NCBI GenBank assembly: GCA_017453485.1
Contig: JAFTEW010000056.1
Location: 5,141-69,140, forward strand
Direction of reading: 5' to 3'
Origin: Alphaproteobacteria bacterium
GTDB lineage: Bacteria > Pseudomonadota > Alphaproteobacteria > CAAHEQ01 > UBA3637
DNA length: 64,000 bases
Positions 22,787 to 29,476 of this stretch are shown here, piece after piece (within the stretch, counting starts at the first letter, position 1; every line of letters begins with the position of its first letter). The translations under genes and the position numbers were made by a program. The notes under the pieces are model-generated. The model did not search any database and was not told the origin of the DNA. It worked only from the letters and a program-made list of their open reading frames with translations.

Positions 22787-24379
22787 CTAAACACCCCCGT
22801 TTAAACAGGTTTCGTCAATCGGTTGAGCCGCCGAAGCAGCCAGCATTTTTTCCAGTTCATCCCGCCCTTGCATCATAACGGCCGCGGCCTGTGTTTCTTT
22901 CATCATCTTGTCAACTTCGCCCGCATTGGCACCATTTAAGAAAACACGTCCTTCTTTATCCTTTTTCAATGCCGCTAATAAATTCTGATCCTGTTCATGC
23001 ATGGAAGCCGGCATCTGGGTTTGCAACTCCTCAAAAGCCTCTGGATTCATCTTCTTTAATTCCGCAATATCAGCAATATCTTCCAGTTTCAGACGAGATT
23101 CATGAACATCATCATCAGCAGTATCACGCCGATTCATCTCTAATTCTGCTTCATTTAACAAAGGCAGATACATCTGCTGTAATTGTTGTAAAACAGCGGC
23201 TTGTTGATCCAAATCCAATAAATCGACCGTATCCTTACTGCCGGGCAGAAATTGTTCCAATTGTTCTTTCAAACTGGATAACCGACTGTCCGCCTGTTCC
23301 AACACCAAACTTTCCAATCGACGCGTTGTATCTACCGTCTGGCTCATCGTATCGTAGGCTACCAGCCGATTGGTTTGTTTCTGACGTTTTGCACTCTCTT
23401 TCATGGTCAGTCCCTGGCTGAAATCCTGTGCCATTTCTCCGGTTGGATTAACATCTGCGAACCGACCTTCCGCATATTTTTTCCAGGGTTCAGGCATTAC
23501 GGGGTAAATCTGTTTTTCCGGAACTTCCGATTCAACATAAATCATCATTTCATTTTTTGGCGGTAGCGGCCGGGGTGCTATCGGCGGTTTTCGAAAAGAC
23601 GATGGCAAAGCCGCTGTTTTTGCCGGATTCTTAGCCGCCAGCAATGCTACATATTCCCGATGCGCTTTCTCTACATCTTCGGCTTTGGCGTAGTCATATT
23701 TTTCATCCCCGATTCGGGGGCGCATCTGCGGTGGCACCCCGAAGTAAGTATTCAATTTTGTATAGAAAGAATCCCACTCTTTATCAAATGTATATTTCTG
23801 GTCGGCCCACAAAGGAAAAGTCGTGTTTTCCTTTGTCTTCGGACGTTCCCCCCATTGATCCTGATTTTGATAAACATCAACCAAAATATCACGACCGACC
23901 CGCCACGGTGCAAATAATTCCGCAGCCATTTCCGGGGTCATTTCTCCATTTTCCATATAGCGTTTAAAAGCTTCACGATCCGCATCCGTTGCCTCGGTTG
24001 AGTTAATATAGATGCTTAATCCCTTTTCCCGATCGGCATAGGCTTCTTTCATCTTATTCCAAACCTCTTCGGGTTTTTCAAAAGACTCTTCCAATTTTTG
24101 AATACTGCATTTTTCCAGAGCAGCCAAACGATCTTCTTCTACCTGGCGCATGTGAACCGTTGTCAACAACTGATTCCGAATTTGGTCTAAATTCCGAATT
24201 TCAAACATCAGGTTATGGAGCGCCAAAGCTTTTTTTAAAGCCTTGCGCTCCACACCCGTCACTTTCATGATTTTCCCTTTATTTGTCGGTGTCACCGTAT
24301 CAAAAGAAAGATCAGCCCCCTGACATACACCGACCCCAATCACCAAGCCGGCTACTATTCCCGCAGCCCAGTATTTCAT
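22787..24379 (-). CDS. Secreted 530-aa protein of unknown function within the T4SS locus (Pro-rich segment, coiled-coil C-terminus)
   Basis: Signal peptide. No recognisable catalytic motif. 4-nt overlaps with both neighbours suggest co-translation with them. Confidence 0.5.
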   Translation of the reverse strand: MKYWAAGIVAGLVIGVGVCQGADLSFDTVTPTNKGKIMKVTGVERKALKKALALHNLMFEIRNLDQIRNQLLTTVHMRQVEEDRLAALEKCSIQKLEESFEKPEEVWNKMKEAYADREKGLSIYINSTEATDADREAFKRYMENGEMTPEMAAELFAPWRVGRDILVDVYQNQDQWGERPKTKENTTFPLWADQKYTFDKEWDSFYTKLNTYFGVPPQMRPRIGDEKYDYAKAEDVEKAHREYVALLAAKNPAKTAALPSSFRKPPIAPRPLPPKNEMMIYVESEVPEKQIYPVMPEPWKKYAEGRFADVNPTGEMAQDFSQGLTMKESAKRQKQTNRLVAYDTMSQTVDTTRRLESLVLEQADSRLSSLKEQLEQFLPGSKDTVDLLDLDQQAAVLQQLQQMYLPLLNEAELEMNRRDTADDDVHESRLKLEDIADIAELKKMNPEAFEELQTQMPASMHEQDQNLLAALKKDKEGRVFLNGANAGEVDKMMKETQAAAVMMQGRDELEKMLAASAAQPIDETCLNGGV

Positions 24380-25275
24380 TGTTGACCTTTCACATCGAGC
24401 GTATCCGATAGCGGAGTTGTCCCTTGCTCATACAATCCGGCTTTGGCCTGTAAACGCAGCCCCAAAACTTGCTGTTCCAAACTCAACAATTGATCATAAG
24501 CCAATCCATGATGAGCATACTGCCGTAATGTTTGGTTATAGTCATTTGTCTTTTCAACCGTTTTTTTACTATTTTGCGGATCCAAATCCTTTTTAGCATC
24601 AGACTCATCATATTTTGAGTCAACATCACCGACAACACTGCCGACTGTATCCGTCACGTTTTTACGCAACACAGCCGCCAAAGCCAACATACGAATAGCT
24701 TGTTCCTGTTCGGTATATTTCCGTTGTTGAAGATATGCCTCTTTTTCATTCATAGTTCCGGCAGACGACGTATAGTCTTTTTGTTGTTCTTGTGCCAATT
24801 CATAGGTCGTTTTACCGCCATCTTTGATGATTTCATCATCCTTCCCTTTGCCGACCATACCTTCACCGGCTTCCCCGGTAATACCACCGGTCTCAATTTC
24901 GATATTGGACAATTTAGCATCAACATCCTTCATCATGCCGTCTATTTTCTTTTTAGGGACAGATATTCTTTCCCGAATTTGTCCCTTTACTTCATTTTCC
25001 ACCTCAGTTCTGAGGCGAATAAATTCCTGTTCCGTTGCAACAATGGCATGAGTCGGAATACTGGTCACATCCAATACAGGCCAACGATCTTCGGTCACTT
25101 TTTCCACAAACCGTTTGATAGCGGCATATTTATTGTTATCTGCGGCAAACTTACCAACCACCTCACCACCGATATCGGCCTGTGCCATCACCCGACATCC
25201 GATACCACAAGATAAAGCAATACCCGCTAACAATGTATATTTTAACACTTTATTCATCATAGTCCCCCTCCTCAT
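24376..25275 (-). CDS. Secreted alpha-helical protein, VirB5/TrbJ-like paralog 1
   Basis: Signal peptide. K/E/Q-rich helical composition. C-terminal helix LLSLEQQVLGLRLQAKAG and tail ...KGQQ, shared with the next paralog. Confidence 0.4.
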   Translation of the reverse strand: MRRGTMMNKVLKYTLLAGIALSCGIGCRVMAQADIGGEVVGKFAADNNKYAAIKRFVEKVTEDRWPVLDVTSIPTHAIVATEQEFIRLRTEVENEVKGQIRERISVPKKKIDGMMKDVDAKLSNIEIETGGITGEAGEGMVGKGKDDEIIKDGGKTTYELAQEQQKDYTSSAGTMNEKEAYLQQRKYTEQEQAIRMLALAAVLRKNVTDTVGSVVGDVDSKYDESDAKKDLDPQNSKKTVEKTNDYNQTLRQYAHHGLAYDQLLSLEQQVLGLRLQAKAGLYEQGTTPLSDTLDVKGQQ

Positions 25276-25964
25276 TGTTGACCTTGACCGGGATCTTCAA
25301 TCCGTTGCGGATCCAGTCCTAACAGCATTTGAGCGGCCTCTAATTCCATCAGTTTTGCCTGTAAAATCACGTTCGCCCCTTCCAGTTCTACCATCGTTTT
25401 TTTCGTTTGAATCATCATATCAATTTGATGAATATTGCCGCCAGCCGTTGTTTCAGCATCCTTTAAAACACTTTGTTCTTGGGCGACACTATGACGAATA
25501 GCCGCACTTAACGACAAAATCTCTTTAGCTAACGATTCAACATACGCATACCGCCGCTGCATACTCTCATTTTTATGAGCCTCTGTCACCTTAGACAAAT
25601 CCGGATCAAAAAAGAATTTTTCCCGAATATATCTATCGGCATCTTCTGCATTTTCAAACGCCGGCAGATACTTATCCGACCCCATAGTCATAATGTTCGC
25701 ATCTTTCAAAAAAGCATAGGAAGAACCCTTCAACAAATCTTTTTCTTTAACCTGCTTTTTCCCTTCCCAAATTTTGATTTCTTCCTCTTTGGAATGCACC
25801 TTATGGTATTCGGAAATCAGGGATAACATCCGTTGCACCCCCTGAACGGCAAACTCGGCCGTCCGCACGGCATCATAGACAAGAAATGCCTGGGCCGTTG
25901 ATACAGACAACCCTAACCCTAACCCCAGGGTCGCACATAACAGTGTTCTTTTGAAATTCTTCAT
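25272..25964 (-). CDS. Secreted alpha-helical protein, VirB5/TrbJ-like paralog 2
   Basis: The mature N-terminus AFLVYDAVRTAEFAVQGVQ resembles the VirB5/TrbJ 'xIPVxD + coiled coil' start. C-terminal ...ILQAKLMELEAAQMLLG...GQGQQ. Confidence 0.45.
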   Translation of the reverse strand: MKNFKRTLLCATLGLGLGLSVSTAQAFLVYDAVRTAEFAVQGVQRMLSLISEYHKVHSKEEEIKIWEGKKQVKEKDLLKGSSYAFLKDANIMTMGSDKYLPAFENAEDADRYIREKFFFDPDLSKVTEAHKNESMQRRYAYVESLAKEILSLSAAIRHSVAQEQSVLKDAETTAGGNIHQIDMMIQTKKTMVELEGANVILQAKLMELEAAQMLLGLDPQRIEDPGQGQQ

Positions 25965-28706: not shown

Positions 28707-28717
28707 GGCTCGCCTCC

Positions 28718-29476
28718 TTAAATATTACCTTCTTTATCCTGCAAAGGACCGGCCGTTCTGGACAATCCCTGCAACACCTGCAACGCCCGAATACCGGCAT
28801 CGGTTGCCTCAACGGCTGACGCATGTAAAGACCGCTCGTAAATATGGCGGTCCATCCCGGTAATTAACTCATACATAGCACCGACATCCTTTGCCTTAGC
28901 AATTTGTTCGGCCCGTTTTTTAGGTTGGGAATCATCCGCACTGACACCCGCATTAACCGTTTCGGTAGCACCCATAGCGATGCCAGAAGTTGCAAAATCA
29001 TTAATGGCAATACGCTGATTTTCCATAATTTTCTTTGTTTCGGCCGTTGTATATTTAATTCCTTTTTTAGCCTGAACCACCAAATTCTTTTCAATTTGTT
29101 CCCGTGTTTCCTGCGTATAATTTCCCAAATTCGGCACGTCCTTTAATCTATAACCGGTCCCCGAGTGGGCAATAATGTTTGAACCGTTACCTGCCATTTC
29201 TTGTGTTTCCGAAATAATTTCATTAACCTTACCATCAACACCCCGCAGGCTGCCACCGCCGACCTTTCCCAAGGTATCCGTATAAAGAACCTCATCATAC
29301 TTTAAAGCTTCCTGTTTCCACCGTGTCAACTCGGATTCAATCAATAACTTCAAATCCGGGAAAGAGAACTCATAAATCGACGCAATCGGAATCAGGAATG
29401 CCGCCCGAGCAACACTGGCCGTCAAACATAATCCGACAACAGCGGCGCTGCCGAGATAGAAACTTATTCTTTTCAT
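28718..29476 (-). CDS. Secreted alpha-helical protein, VirB5/TrbJ-like paralog 5 (ends ...KEGNI)
   Basis: Signal peptide. Mature start AAFLIPIASIYEF. AGGAGG RBS. First gene of the block after the promoter. Confidence 0.45.
   Translation of the reverse strand: MKRISFYLGSAAVVGLCLTASVARAAFLIPIASIYEFSFPDLKLLIESELTRWKQEALKYDEVLYTDTLGKVGGGSLRGVDGKVNEIISETQEMAGNGSNIIAHSGTGYRLKDVPNLGNYTQETREQIEKNLVVQAKKGIKYTTAETKKIMENQRIAINDFATSGIAMGATETVNAGVSADDSQPKKRAEQIAKAKDVGAMYELITGMDRHIYERSLHASAVEATDAGIRALQVLQGLSRTAGPLQDKEGNI

What the first reader, a model, noticed from the sequence alone, without database searches (positions are those of the whole stretch)
24376..29476. Tandem array of 5–6 secreted alpha-helical paralogs (VirB5/TrbJ-like) upstream of the virB8–virB11 genes
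Six consecutive minus-strand genes encode Sec-signal proteins of 230–430 aa with K/E/Q/A-rich coiled-coil composition. Several have mature N-termini like VirB5/TrbJ minor pilins (AFLVYDAV..., SGVPVYGWG..., AAFLIPIAS...). Two share the C-terminal tetrapeptide EGNI and two share GQQ. Stops and starts are tightly packed (4-nt overlaps, 10–12-nt gaps). The order VirB8–VirB7-like–VirB8–VirB9–VirB10–VirB11 matches Rickettsiales rvh systems, which are described as lacking VirB5. If the Rickettsiales placement is right, multiple VirB5-like paralogs recall the Bartonella Trw system, where tandem trwJ/trwL copies diversify the pilus surface. Here that would combine with an rvh-like core.
Basis: partly seen in the sequence, partly recalled or inferred. 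Interest (0 to 1): 0.7.

Follow-up and report, generated by a model that had tools for sequence, protein, structure and literature searches.

The report
Seven secreted proteins leading a T4SS operon
Seven tightly packed genes for exported helical proteins of unknown family sit in front of an unusual type IV secretion system in uncultured gut and rumen Alphaproteobacteria; they are not copies of one another, and only three carry faint traces of the pilus-tip protein VirB5.

Summary
The genes are real. Seven minus-strand genes, not five or six (A-G, 22787-29476), each encode a protein with a canonical Sec signal peptide. A-F have AAGGAGG ribosome sites. The genes are 4-nt overlapped or 5-12 nt apart, follow the best sigma-70-like promoter in the region, and run into virB8-virB7-virB8-virB9-virB10-virB11.

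The paralog reading fails. All-against-all BLASTP and profile-profile comparison give no inter-family score above decoy level, while the VirB8a/VirB8b control scores 97.7%. All seven families occur once each, in the same order, in every relative where the whole array could be read. The only structural change is a C+D fusion in two lineages. The EGNI and GQQ tails are exact 20-nt and 14-nt DNA repeats across gene junctions and are not conserved in orthologs.

No Pfam, NCBIfam or PDB sequence match exists. An exhaustive HMMER search with family B found 22 proteins, all full-length or fragmentary matches to that profile. AlphaFold models are weak (pLDDT 41 and 59) and hit only generic helical bundles.

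Against a 120-sequence VirB5 profile, A, B, E and G score at background once signal peptides are removed. D (VirB5 C-terminal motif), C and F (VirB5 N-terminal motif) are the three top non-control pairs of 91 comparisons (P about 3e-4 to 4e-3).

Best reading: lineage-specific, fast-evolving T4SS accessory proteins, with C/D and perhaps F derived from VirB5.

The parts
29537..29564 (-). Sigma-70-like promoter (TTGACA-16 nt-TAGAAT with TG), between the folD stop and the start of gene A
   Evidence: It is the best promoter-like site in 11000-30600, with 11 of 12 matches. The intergenic sequence was read.
28718..29476 (-). Gene A, 252 aa. Sec signal (ARA|AFLIPI), predicted helical, no known family.
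   Evidence: Orthologs of 238-297 aa in every relative. HHalign against VirB5 scores at background.
27996..28706 (-). Gene B, 236 aa. Sec signal (AMA|SGVPVY). Very conserved C-terminal helix, RLQEETQKNxNTRLS.
   Evidence: The exhaustive profile search found only 22 proteins. AlphaFold pLDDT 41.5. No VirB5 signal after signal-peptide removal.
26696..27985 (-). Gene C, 429 aa. Sec signal, variable K/E-rich N-terminal extension, then a conserved domain with 10 conserved cysteines.
   Evidence: Fused to D in L005/L018 and L022/L023.
27275..27310 (-). Motif G-x-P-T-x-D-x-x-N-I (C residues 226-237), which opens the conserved domain. It resembles the mature N-terminus of VirB5, GIPViDxANL.
   Evidence: HHalign E 1.7e-3 to 3e-3, probability 10-15%. 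0 of 60 column shuffles reach the score. Second-best non-control pair of 91.
25976..26683 (-). Gene D, 235 aa. Sec signal, variable N-terminal part, strongly conserved C-terminal helices.
26093..26263 (-). D residues 141-197 (...MLKGIAKLQAQHLQK...). They align with VirB5 residues 131-182 (...T.DpKAIAELQARIQ...), at the same relative position in a protein of the same length.
   Evidence: HHalign probability 37-38%, E 3.3e-4. 0 of 60 shuffles reach the score. Best non-control pair of 91.
25272..25964 (-). Gene E, 230 aa. Sec signal (AQA|FLVYD), all-alpha model.
24376..25275 (-). Gene F, 299 aa (294 aa if it starts at 25260, which has a GAGGAGG ribosome site). Sec signal.
25057..25086 (-). Motif G/W-x-P-V-x-D-[IV]-T-S (F residues 64-73), which opens the conserved part of F. 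It resembles GIPViDxANL of VirB5.
   Evidence: HHalign E 3.6e-3 without the signal peptide and 3.6e-5 with it. 0 of 60 shuffles reach the score. A related PVVD..S motif is visible in the most distant ortholog, L022.
22787..24379 (-). Gene G, 530 aa. Sec signal, Pro-rich centre, conserved ...IDETCLNGGV C-terminus.
   Evidence: 41-51% identity to orthologs. No plasmid match.
27991..28010 (.). One copy of the exact 20-nt junction repeat GAAGGTAATATTTAAGGAGG (minus strand): codons E-G-N-I, stop and ribosome site. The other copy is at 28713-28732.
24376..24389 (.). One copy of the exact 14-nt junction repeat AAGGTCAACAATGA (minus strand): G-Q-Q plus stop overlapping ATG. The other copy is at 25272-25285.
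11536..22781 (-). T4SS core genes co-oriented with the array: virB8a 22146-22781, virB7 21881-22057, virB8b 21147-21860, virB9 19206-21047, virB10 12546-19172 (2208 aa), virB11 11536-12525.
   Evidence: HHalign VirB8a against VirB8b gives 97.7%.

Best explanation
A-G are seven different Sec-exported, mainly alpha-helical proteins restricted to one lineage.

Proposed mechanism:
- They are transcribed from one promoter upstream of A, together with virB8-virB11, and are translationally coupled.
- They act in the periplasm or on the cell surface as accessory subunits of an rvh-like type IV secretion system.
- C and D (two genes here, one fused gene in two related lineages), and probably F, are highly diverged derivatives of VirB5, the protein that sits on VirB6 in the stalk and ends up at the pilus tip.
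- C and F keep its N-terminal GxPVxD motif. D keeps its C-terminal KAIAELQAR-type helix.
- A, B, E and G are partners of unknown origin.
- The module evolves much faster than the channel core, as expected for parts that face the target cell.

Shown: gene structure, export signals, operon-like organisation, strict synteny with the T4SS core, absence of paralogy, absence of any known family, and weak but above-background VirB5 motifs.

Inferred: physical association with the T4SS, VirB5 ancestry, and location at the stalk, tip or surface.
For: Operon organisation:
- The best promoter-like site of the region lies directly upstream of A, and no strong terminator lies inside the array.
- AAGGAGG sites sit 5-7 nt before A-F. 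Gaps are 10-12 nt or 4-nt overlaps, and G ends 5 nt before virB8a.

Synteny:
- The order folD-A-B-C-D-E-F-G-virB8-virB7-virB8-virB9-virB10 is kept in the seven distinct relatives whose contigs span the array, including one with only 25-32% identity in A, B, E and F.
- C+D occurs as a single ORF in two lineages, each seen in two samples. This is a Rosetta-stone link between the protein with the VirB5 N-motif and the one with the C-motif.

VirB5 motifs:
- On the fused profile both motifs hit VirB5 co-linearly: 46-69 to 23-46 (E 2.3e-4) and 306-358 to 131-179 (E 1.4e-3).
- D, C and F against VirB5 are the three best non-control pairs among 91 profile comparisons (31.8, 30.3, 26.5). All others are at or below 23.7, and VirB5 against decoys is at or below 17.4.
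- 0 of 60 column shuffles reach these scores. The session's compare tool reproduced them.

Evolution rate:
- Identity to the most distant relative is 25-32% for A, B, E and F and 41% for G. It is 58-75% for housekeeping neighbours and 79% for VirB9.

Literature:
- VirB5 homologs can be invisible to sequence and structure searches. F-plasmid TraH was recognised only by its predicted interaction, with just an N-terminal helix-loop-helix conserved (bioRxiv 10.64898/2026.07.31.741991).
Against: - HHalign probabilities are only 10-38% and the aligned stretches are short (10-52 columns). Q/A-rich amphipathic helices can match by composition.
- There is no Pfam, NCBIfam or PDB sequence hit for any member or any ortholog.
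- The motif of C is poorly kept in the most distant ortholog.
- Only E and B were modelled. Both models are low confidence and give no specific fold match.
- virB2, virB3, virB4, virB6 and virD4 are not in the window, so the supposed partner VirB6 was not seen.
- The link to the T4SS rests on gene order in a single lineage, which is effectively one evolutionary observation.
Confidence: 0.45

Rival explanations
1. One reading: the genes are a tandem array of VirB5/TrbJ-like paralogs, made by duplication and diversifying the pilus surface as the trwJ/trwL copies do in Bartonella.
For: - The proteins are secreted and helical, about 230-250 aa for four of them, and lie next to T4SS core genes.
- N-termini such as GVPVY and FLVYD recall GIPViD.
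- With signal peptides included, B reaches 81% and E 34% against VirB5.
Against: - Those scores collapse below 1% when signal peptides are removed.
- No inter-family similarity rises above decoys.
- Each family is single-copy and positionally orthologous in all relatives, with no copy-number variation.
- Shared tails are junction DNA repeats that orthologs do not conserve.
- There are no PF07996 hits, while the positive control scores 8e-51.
Confidence: 0.08
2. The proteins are not machine parts but cargo. In this reading they form a multi-subunit toxin or effector complex. It is exported to the periplasm by Sec, assembled there, and pushed across the outer membrane by the T4SS. Pertussis toxin works this way: its subunit genes precede the ptl genes in one operon, and the Ptl system also lacks VirB5.
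For: - Several signal-peptide genes sit directly upstream of, and apparently co-transcribed with, T4SS genes.
- They evolve fast.
- No virD4 coupling protein follows virB11 in the window.
- PMC2653234 notes that Ptl lacks VirB5.
Against: - No toxin, enzyme or receptor-binding domain was found in any member or ortholog.
- The VirB5-like motifs in C, D and F point to machine parts.
Confidence: 0.15
3. They are periplasmic or outer-membrane scaffold proteins that build an enlarged core complex around the 2208-aa VirB10 and 613-aa VirB9. CagM, Cag3 and CagT do this around CagY/CagX in Helicobacter pylori. On this reading they have no VirB5 ancestry.
For: - VirB10 is giant and carries beta-flower repeats. 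VirB9 is long and hits the CagX model.
- A-G are specific to the lineage that has this giant VirB10.
- The closest plasmid system, from Microvirga, has a normal-sized VirB10 and no A-G homologs.
Against: - Known core-complex accessory proteins are largely beta-rich or lipoproteins (my own knowledge). A-G are predicted helical and have no lipobox.
- A-G evolve far faster than VirB9, with which a scaffold should co-evolve.
Confidence: 0.15
4. The seven genes encode envelope proteins unrelated to secretion that merely lie between folD and the virB genes.
For: - There is no recognisable T4SS domain.
- All evidence of linkage comes from one lineage with generally conserved gene order. XerD, LptD, SurA and FolD are also syntenic.
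Against: - Spacing is translational-coupling-like down to virB8a, and a single strong promoter lies upstream of A.
- VirB5-like motifs are present.
- The family is as narrowly distributed as this T4SS variant.
Confidence: 0.07

Closest known systems
VirB5 / TraC / TrwJ minor pilins (Pfam PF07996; PDB 1R8I, 7O3V)
   Same: - Sec-exported, helical, about 220-250 aa, and encoded with T4SS genes.
- C and F open their conserved domain with a GxP[VT]xD motif like the mature VirB5 N-terminus.
- D carries a KGIAKLQAQ helix aligned to KAIAELQAR at the same relative position.
   Different: - No significant family or PDB sequence match.
- The motifs are split over separate genes.
- C carries a 10-cysteine domain of about 200 aa that VirB5 lacks.
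- The genes lie upstream of virB8, not between virB4 and virB6.
- The fold could not be confirmed.
Rickettsiales rvh T4SS, islet C (PMC2653234)
   Same: - Order virB8a-virB7-virB8b-virB9-virB10-virB11, with a duplicated VirB8.
- Small VirB7 lipoprotein with the KKSP-Cys motif.
- The T4SS genes are evidently split over several loci, since virB2, virB3, virB4 and virB6 are absent here.
   Different: - rvh is described as lacking VirB5 and has no such upstream array.
- Here virD4 does not follow virB11, VirB10 is 2208 aa, and there is no truncated second virB9.
- The organism is an uncultured gut or rumen alphaproteobacterium of unknown order.
Helicobacter pylori CagH-CagI-CagL module with CagY/CagX (PMC3164655)
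   Same: - Several system-specific, Sec-exported proteins sit in one operon beside a T4SS with a giant repeat-bearing VirB10 homolog and a long VirB9/CagX.
- CagL is a VirB5 analog that sequence searches do not recognise.
- This is the best model for how the array may work.
   Different: - CagH, CagI and CagL share a functional C-terminal hexapeptide encoded by divergent DNA. Here the shared tails are identical DNA and are not conserved in orthologs.
- There is no sequence similarity. CagL appears only at rank 24 (E 1.3) in Foldseek.
Bartonella Trw system (tandem trwJ/trwL copies)
   Same: More than one VirB5-related gene may be present in one T4SS locus.
   Different: Trw copies are recognisable paralogs made by amplification (my own knowledge, not checked here). 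A-G are seven distinct families with fixed copy number.
F-plasmid TraH as hidden VirB5 (bioRxiv 10.64898/2026.07.31.741991)
   Same: It is a larger secreted protein with an extra domain in which only an N-terminal helical element recalls VirB5. C has the same pattern: N-motif plus an added cysteine-rich domain.
   Different: No similarity to TraH was detected. Pfam TraH was not among the hits at E<=1.
Microvirga sp. VF16 plasmid pMVF16-3 T4SS (NZ_CP069357.1)
   Same: - Closest VirB11 in the plasmid collection (40% identity).
- Homologous 58-aa VirB7 (E 1.8e-18) and long VirB9.
- Its 273-aa protein between virB4 and virB7 starts QVPVLD and also escapes Pfam.
   Different: - Complete single-locus virB2-virB11 plus virD4, one VirB8 and a normal VirB10.
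- None of its three unassigned proteins matches A-G.

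Membership tests
VirB5/TrbJ (PF07996, TIGR02791) | Significant match to the family profile | tested here: not met
   - No PF07996 or NCBIfam VirB5/TrbJ hit at E<=1 for A-G or for any ortholog of C and D.
- The control VirB5 scores 8e-51.
- HHalign against a 120-sequence VirB5 profile gives at most 38% probability.
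VirB5/TrbJ (PF07996, TIGR02791) | Sec signal peptide and about 220-aa mature helical protein | tested here: met
   All seven have signal peptides. A, B, D and E are 230-252 aa. The B and E models are all-alpha. This feature is not specific.
VirB5/TrbJ (PF07996, TIGR02791) | Conserved mature N-terminus GIPViDxANLxQ | tested here: inconclusive
   - C (residues 226-237) and F (64-73) have GxP[VT]xD-type motifs at the start of their conserved domains. P is about 2e-3 to 4e-3, above all decoys and shuffles.
- A, B and E share only 3-5 residues and score at background.
VirB5/TrbJ (PF07996, TIGR02791) | Conserved C-terminal helix TxDxKAIAELQARI | tested here: inconclusive
   D residues 141-197 align to VirB5 131-182 with probability 37-38% and E 3.3e-4. 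No other member does.
VirB5/TrbJ (PF07996, TIGR02791) | Three-helix bundle with globular appendage, as in TraC, TrwJ and CagL | tested here: inconclusive
   - The E model (pLDDT 59) has three long helices plus short ones.
- Foldseek finds no hit below E 0.3, with CagL at rank 24.
- The B model is unusable. C, D and F were not modelled.
VirB5/TrbJ (PF07996, TIGR02791) | Pentamer mounted on VirB6, located at the pilus tip | not testable with these tools
   VirB6 is not in the window and no multimer prediction was available.
Trw-type amplified VirB5/VirB2 arrays | Tandem copies recognisably paralogous, with copy number varying between relatives | tested here: not met
   No paralogy above decoy level. 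The same seven families occur in every related locus long enough to show the whole array.
rvh-type T4SS core (Rickettsiales) | Gene order virB8a-virB7-virB8b-virB9-virB10-virB11 with a duplicated VirB8 | tested here: met
   VirB8a against VirB8b gives HHalign 97.7%. The reference order comes from PMC2653234.
rvh-type T4SS core (Rickettsiales) | VirB7 lipoprotein with the [KI]KSP motif next to a second Cys | tested here: met
   The sequence reads ...ILAAC|GS...LKKSPCAC.... The motif is described in PMC2653234.
rvh-type T4SS core (Rickettsiales) | virD4 directly after virB11, and a host of order Rickettsiales | tested here: not met
   - After virB11 come a tRNA gene and a type IVb-pilus-like cluster, with no VirD4 domain.
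- Source records give only Alphaproteobacteria or Pseudomonadota. The order was not determined.
CagH/CagI/CagL-type module | Conserved shared C-terminal motif needed for function | tested here: not met
   The tails EGNI and GQQ are species-specific identical DNA junction repeats and are absent from orthologs. [quoted passage not shown]
Pertussis-toxin-like Sec-dependent T4SS cargo | Recognisable toxin A or B subunit domains | tested here: not met
   No such Pfam or NCBIfam hits.

The most novel reading that the evidence does not exclude
An rvh-type type IV secretion system, a class described as lacking VirB5, in fact keeps VirB5 in disguised, dismembered form.
- One copy is split into two genes (C with an inserted cysteine-rich domain, plus D), and a second is N-motif-only (F).
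- Together with four further secreted helical proteins these form a heteromeric stalk or tip complex instead of the usual VirB5 homopentamer.
- If so, the C, D and F profiles give a handle for finding the 'missing' VirB5 of Rickettsiales-like systems. They would also show that the tip of a T4SS can be built from several different subunits.
Probability: 0.2. Interest if true: 0.75.

Novelty: new variant of a known kind. Interest (0 to 1): 0.5.

Why it matters
- T4SS diversity outside cultured pathogens is poorly charted.
- This is a chromosomal, vertically inherited rvh-like system in uncultured rumen and gut Alphaproteobacteria. It has a 2208-aa VirB10 and an operon-leading module of seven exported proteins with no known family.
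- If C/D and F are VirB5 derivatives, the view that rvh-type systems dispense with VirB5 needs revisiting.
- A naturally split or fused VirB5 would also show which parts of the protein act independently.
- If the proteins are instead Sec-dependent cargo, this would be a rare second example of the pertussis-toxin export route.
- The practical lesson is that the array is not a paralog family, so methods that assume paralogy, such as variable-region mapping, do not apply.

Tried and rejected
- Pfam and NCBIfam scans of A-G, and Pfam scans of all orthologs of C and D, found nothing consistent.
- Profile searches of the A, B, C, D, E and F families against PDB sequences found nothing below E 0.07 and nothing related to T4SS.
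- An exhaustive HMMER search of the B profile against 1.84 billion representatives returned 22 hits, all full-length or fragmentary matches to the B-family profile. It gave no bridge to other families.
- The AlphaFold model of B (24 sequences) had pLDDT 41 and was unusable.
- The afdb50 fold library was not available.
- R388 could not be fetched by accession.
- I tried the Microvirga 273-aa VirB5-position protein as a stepping stone. As a single sequence it links neither to VirB5 (18%) nor to A-G (at most 9%).
- tblastn of D and G against 72,556 plasmids gave no match.
- A motif-only HMM of the VirB5 N- and C-motifs gave individual scores no better than shuffles. Only the positional consistency within families C, F and D was informative.
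- A CagH/I/L-like shared C-terminal sorting motif was rejected, because the tails are junction DNA repeats not conserved in orthologs.
- Lipoprotein status for D, F and G was rejected, because the cysteines near the cleavage site are not conserved or not in a lipobox.
- Literature searches for RF32 plus T4SS and for beta-flower plus T4SS found no papers.

Full report
**1. What is there**

The stretch 22787-29476 holds seven consecutive minus-strand genes:

| Gene | Coordinates | Length |
|---|---|---|
| A | 28718-29476 | 252 aa |
| B | 27996-28706 | 236 aa |
| C | 26696-27985 | 429 aa |
| D | 25976-26683 | 235 aa |
| E | 25272-25964 | 230 aa |
| F | 24376-25275 | 299 aa (294 aa from the ATG at 25260) |
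| G | 22787-24379 | 530 aa |

- An independent gene caller found the same genes on three other contigs that carry an identical protein B.
- Every product begins with a basic n-region, a hydrophobic core and an AxA-type cleavage site. None has another hydrophobic segment.
- A-F each have AAGGAGG or GAGGAGG 5-7 nt before the ATG. Spacers are 10-12 nt or 4-nt ATGA overlaps.
- The best sigma-70-like site in 11000-30600 is TTGACA-16-TAGAAT with an extended TG, at 29564-29537 on the minus strand. It lies between the folD stop and gene A. No convincing terminator lies within the array.
- Downstream, co-oriented, come VirB8, a 58-aa lipoprotein, VirB8, VirB9 (CagX model), a 2208-aa VirB10 (TrbI domain preceded by beta-flower repeats) and VirB11.

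The physical observation is therefore confirmed.

**2. The proteins are not paralogs**

- All-against-all BLASTP gives only A-B at 26% over 86 residues, E 6e-4 in a ten-sequence database.
- I collected orthologs from 20 related contigs, built one profile per family and compared the profiles with HHalign.
- With signal peptides included, some pairs reach 16-63%, but the aligned region is then the signal peptide.
- With signal peptides removed, the best inter-family score is 23.7 (B-E, 4%). This cannot be told apart from array-versus-decoy scores against XerD, SurA, FolD, VirB8 and VirB9 (maximum 22.6).
- The positive control VirB8a-VirB8b scores 85.1 (97.7%).

**3. The array is a fixed seven-family module, not an expanding one**

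- Each family has one positional ortholog in the seven distinct relatives whose contigs cover the whole array, always in the order A-B-C-D-E-F-G between folD and virB8. L008 duplicates L004, and L023, which duplicates L022, ends within F.
- This holds even in the most distant relative (L022), where A, B, E and F are only 25-32% identical to the window proteins.
- The only structural change is that C and D form a single ORF in L005/L018 (398 aa) and in L022/L023 (543 aa). Each fusion was seen in two independent samples.
- Lengths vary through low-complexity acidic or Gly/Ser inserts: C is 258-437 aa, D is 169-235 aa, and E is 226-307 aa.
- The family is very narrow. The word-indexed search found 24 relatives of B and 27 of E.
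- An exhaustive HMMER search of the B profile against 1.84 billion representative proteins found 22 hits, all full-length or fragmentary matches to that same profile.
- Source records call the organisms Alphaproteobacteria or Pseudomonadota MAGs. One is from sheep rumen.

**4. The shared tails**

- EGNI (A, B) and GQQ (E, F) are real. They are the translated part of exact DNA repeats that run through the stop codon into the next gene's ribosome site or start.
- GAAGGTAATATTTAAGGAGG lies at the A/B and B/C junctions. AAGGTCAACAATGA lies at the E/F and F/G junctions.
- Orthologs of A, E and F end differently.
- Another genome (L010) has its own 50-nt junction repeat, at D/E and E/F.
- These are therefore junction repeats that arise within a genome, not a protein sorting motif. 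In Helicobacter, by contrast, the CagH/I/L hexapeptide is encoded by divergent DNA (PMC3164655).

**5. Tests of the VirB5/TrbJ idea**

(a) Family libraries.
- A-G have no PF07996 or NCBIfam VirB5/TrbJ hit at E<=1, and neither does any ortholog of C or D.
- A genuine VirB5 from an Acinetobacter plasmid scores 8e-51. It also finds TrwJ (7O3V, 2.5e-22) and TraC (1R8I, 2.7e-6) in the PDB.

(b) PDB sequence search. Profiles of A-F find nothing relevant.

(c) Structure.
- The AlphaFold model of B is unusable (pLDDT 41.5).
- The model of E is modest (pLDDT 59, pTM 0.49) and all-alpha, with long helices at 32-69, 128-169 and 177-216.
- Foldseek finds no PDB hit below E 0.3, with CagL at rank 24 (E 1.3).

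(d) Profile-profile comparison with a 120-sequence VirB5 alignment.
- With signal peptides, B reaches 81% and E 34%. After trimming, A, B, E and G fall below 1%.
- Three other members do score.
  - D residues 141-197 (...MLKGIAKLQAQHLQK) align with VirB5 131-182 (...T.DpKAIAELQARIQ) at 38%, E 3.3e-4. This is the same relative position in a protein of the same length.
  - C residues 221-251 (G.GvPT.D.aNI..G..N..SV) align with the mature VirB5 N-terminus (GIPViD.ANLAQaIqQV) at 15%, E 1.7e-3.
  - F residues 64-73 (G.PV.DiTSv) align with the same motif at 9%, E 3.6e-3.
- In C and F the motif marks the start of the conserved domain, after a variable linker.
- The reversed VirB5 profile gives at most 1.3%.
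- None of 60 column shuffles reaches the observed scores: null mean 13, sd 2.6, maximum 23.
- In the 91-pair comparison with decoys, D, C and F against VirB5 are the three best pairs after the VirB8 control.
- The session's own compare tool reproduces the values.
- On the natural C-D fusion profile both motifs hit VirB5 co-linearly, with E 2.3e-4 and 1.4e-3.

(e) How to weigh this.
- The evidence is suggestive, not conclusive. The aligned stretches are short, and HHalign's own probabilities stay below 50%.
- Absence of a detectable match is also weak evidence against VirB5 function. The Microvirga protein that occupies the VirB5 position and starts QVPVLD escapes Pfam and reaches only 18% against the VirB5 profile.
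- A 2026 preprint reports that F-plasmid TraH acts as VirB5 with under 3% identity and only a local N-terminal helical element conserved.

**6. The core system**

- The order virB8-virB7-virB8-virB9-virB10-virB11 equals Rickettsia islet C, for which the literature reports no VirB5 (PMC2653234).
- The VirB7 here contains LKKSPCAC, the [KI]KSP-Cys motif that paper describes.
- Differences: no virD4 follows virB11, VirB10 is about four times the usual length, and the taxonomic order of the host is unknown.
- The nearest system in the plasmid collection is on Microvirga pMVF16-3. Its VirB11 is 40% identical and its VirB7 matches at E 1.8e-18. It is a complete single locus without A-G homologs.

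**7. How it most likely works**

Shown:
- seven exported proteins;
- one promoter, with translational-coupling-like spacing into the virB genes;
- strict co-occurrence with this T4SS variant;
- evolution much faster than the core (25-32% identity to L022 for A, B, E and F, against 79% for VirB9 and 58-75% for housekeeping neighbours).

Inferred:
- A-G are accessory subunits of the T4SS that act in the periplasm or at the surface.
- C/D and probably F descend from VirB5 and would take the stalk or pilus-tip position on VirB6 (architecture from PMC9259494).
- A, B, E and G are lineage-specific partners.
- The closest working analogy is the CagH/CagI/CagL module beside the giant CagY in H. pylori.

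I put this at about 0.45. The rivals are:
- Sec-dependent cargo exported in the pertussis-toxin manner (0.15);
- scaffold for the enlarged core complex (0.15);
- unrelated envelope proteins (0.07).

**8. Verdict**

- This is not a Trw-like family of VirB5 paralogs. It is a conserved, lineage-restricted module of seven unrelated-looking secreted proteins.
- I rate it a new variant of a known kind (T4SS accessory or VirB5-like proteins) with moderate interest.
- The decisive tests are VirB6 co-folding, full-genome inventory and deeper HHpred. None could be run here.

Noticed in passing
window 12546-19172 (-): VirB10 is 2208 aa. About 1700 residues of beta-flower repeats (PF21785, 1.9e-67, six stretches) precede the TrbI domain. 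It is 2184-2279 aa in all relatives. A literature search for beta-flower plus type IV secretion found nothing.
   Followed up: partly
window 31592-34825 (-): A single 1077-aa ORF combines an LptF/LptG inner-membrane permease domain with the outer-membrane LptD barrel (PF03739 + PF04453). It is kept as one ORF of 1074-1080 aa in all relatives. There is an internal signal-like segment (...VIFAGAVNGQA|AD).
   Followed up: no
window 7600-10833 (-), with 1349-7373 (-): A 1077-aa protein has no Pfam hit. Its N-terminus (AGRTMTEILGVLAIMGII) looks like a type IV prepilin leader, and its C-terminus is cysteine-rich. It is followed by TcpQ-like, secretin and PilO-like genes. So a type IVb-pilus-like cluster sits where virD4 would be expected after virB11.
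   Followed up: partly
window 19206-21047 (-): VirB9 is about 613 aa, with a CagX domain and a weak C-terminal SPOR match (7e-4, below cut-off). It is 77-81% identical across relatives, far more conserved than VirB8 or A-G.
   Followed up: partly
window 21881-22057 (-): The 58-aa VirB7 lipoprotein carries LKKSPCAC, the [KI]KSP-Cys motif reported for Rickettsia VirB7 and ComB7. A homologous 58-aa gene is on Microvirga plasmid pMVF16-3 (L027:9509-9685).
   Followed up: yes
L002:6867-8594: On a second contig that carries an identical protein B, gene G is called as two genes of 290 and 266 aa instead of one of 530. This is either a disrupted G or an assembly error.
   Followed up: no
L010:8939-8988 and 9779-9828: A 50-nt repeat (80% identical) at the D/E and E/F junctions gives D and E the same tail, GGSYTPG[MV]GGGAF. 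A 38-nt repeat lies at the A/B and B/C junctions. Junction repeats therefore recur independently in different genomes of this lineage.
   Followed up: partly
window 44001-46000: A low-GC stretch (0.33, against about 0.45 elsewhere) holds an 850-aa UvrD-like helicase ORF next to a tRNA gene at 43994-44067. This may be an inserted element.
   Followed up: no
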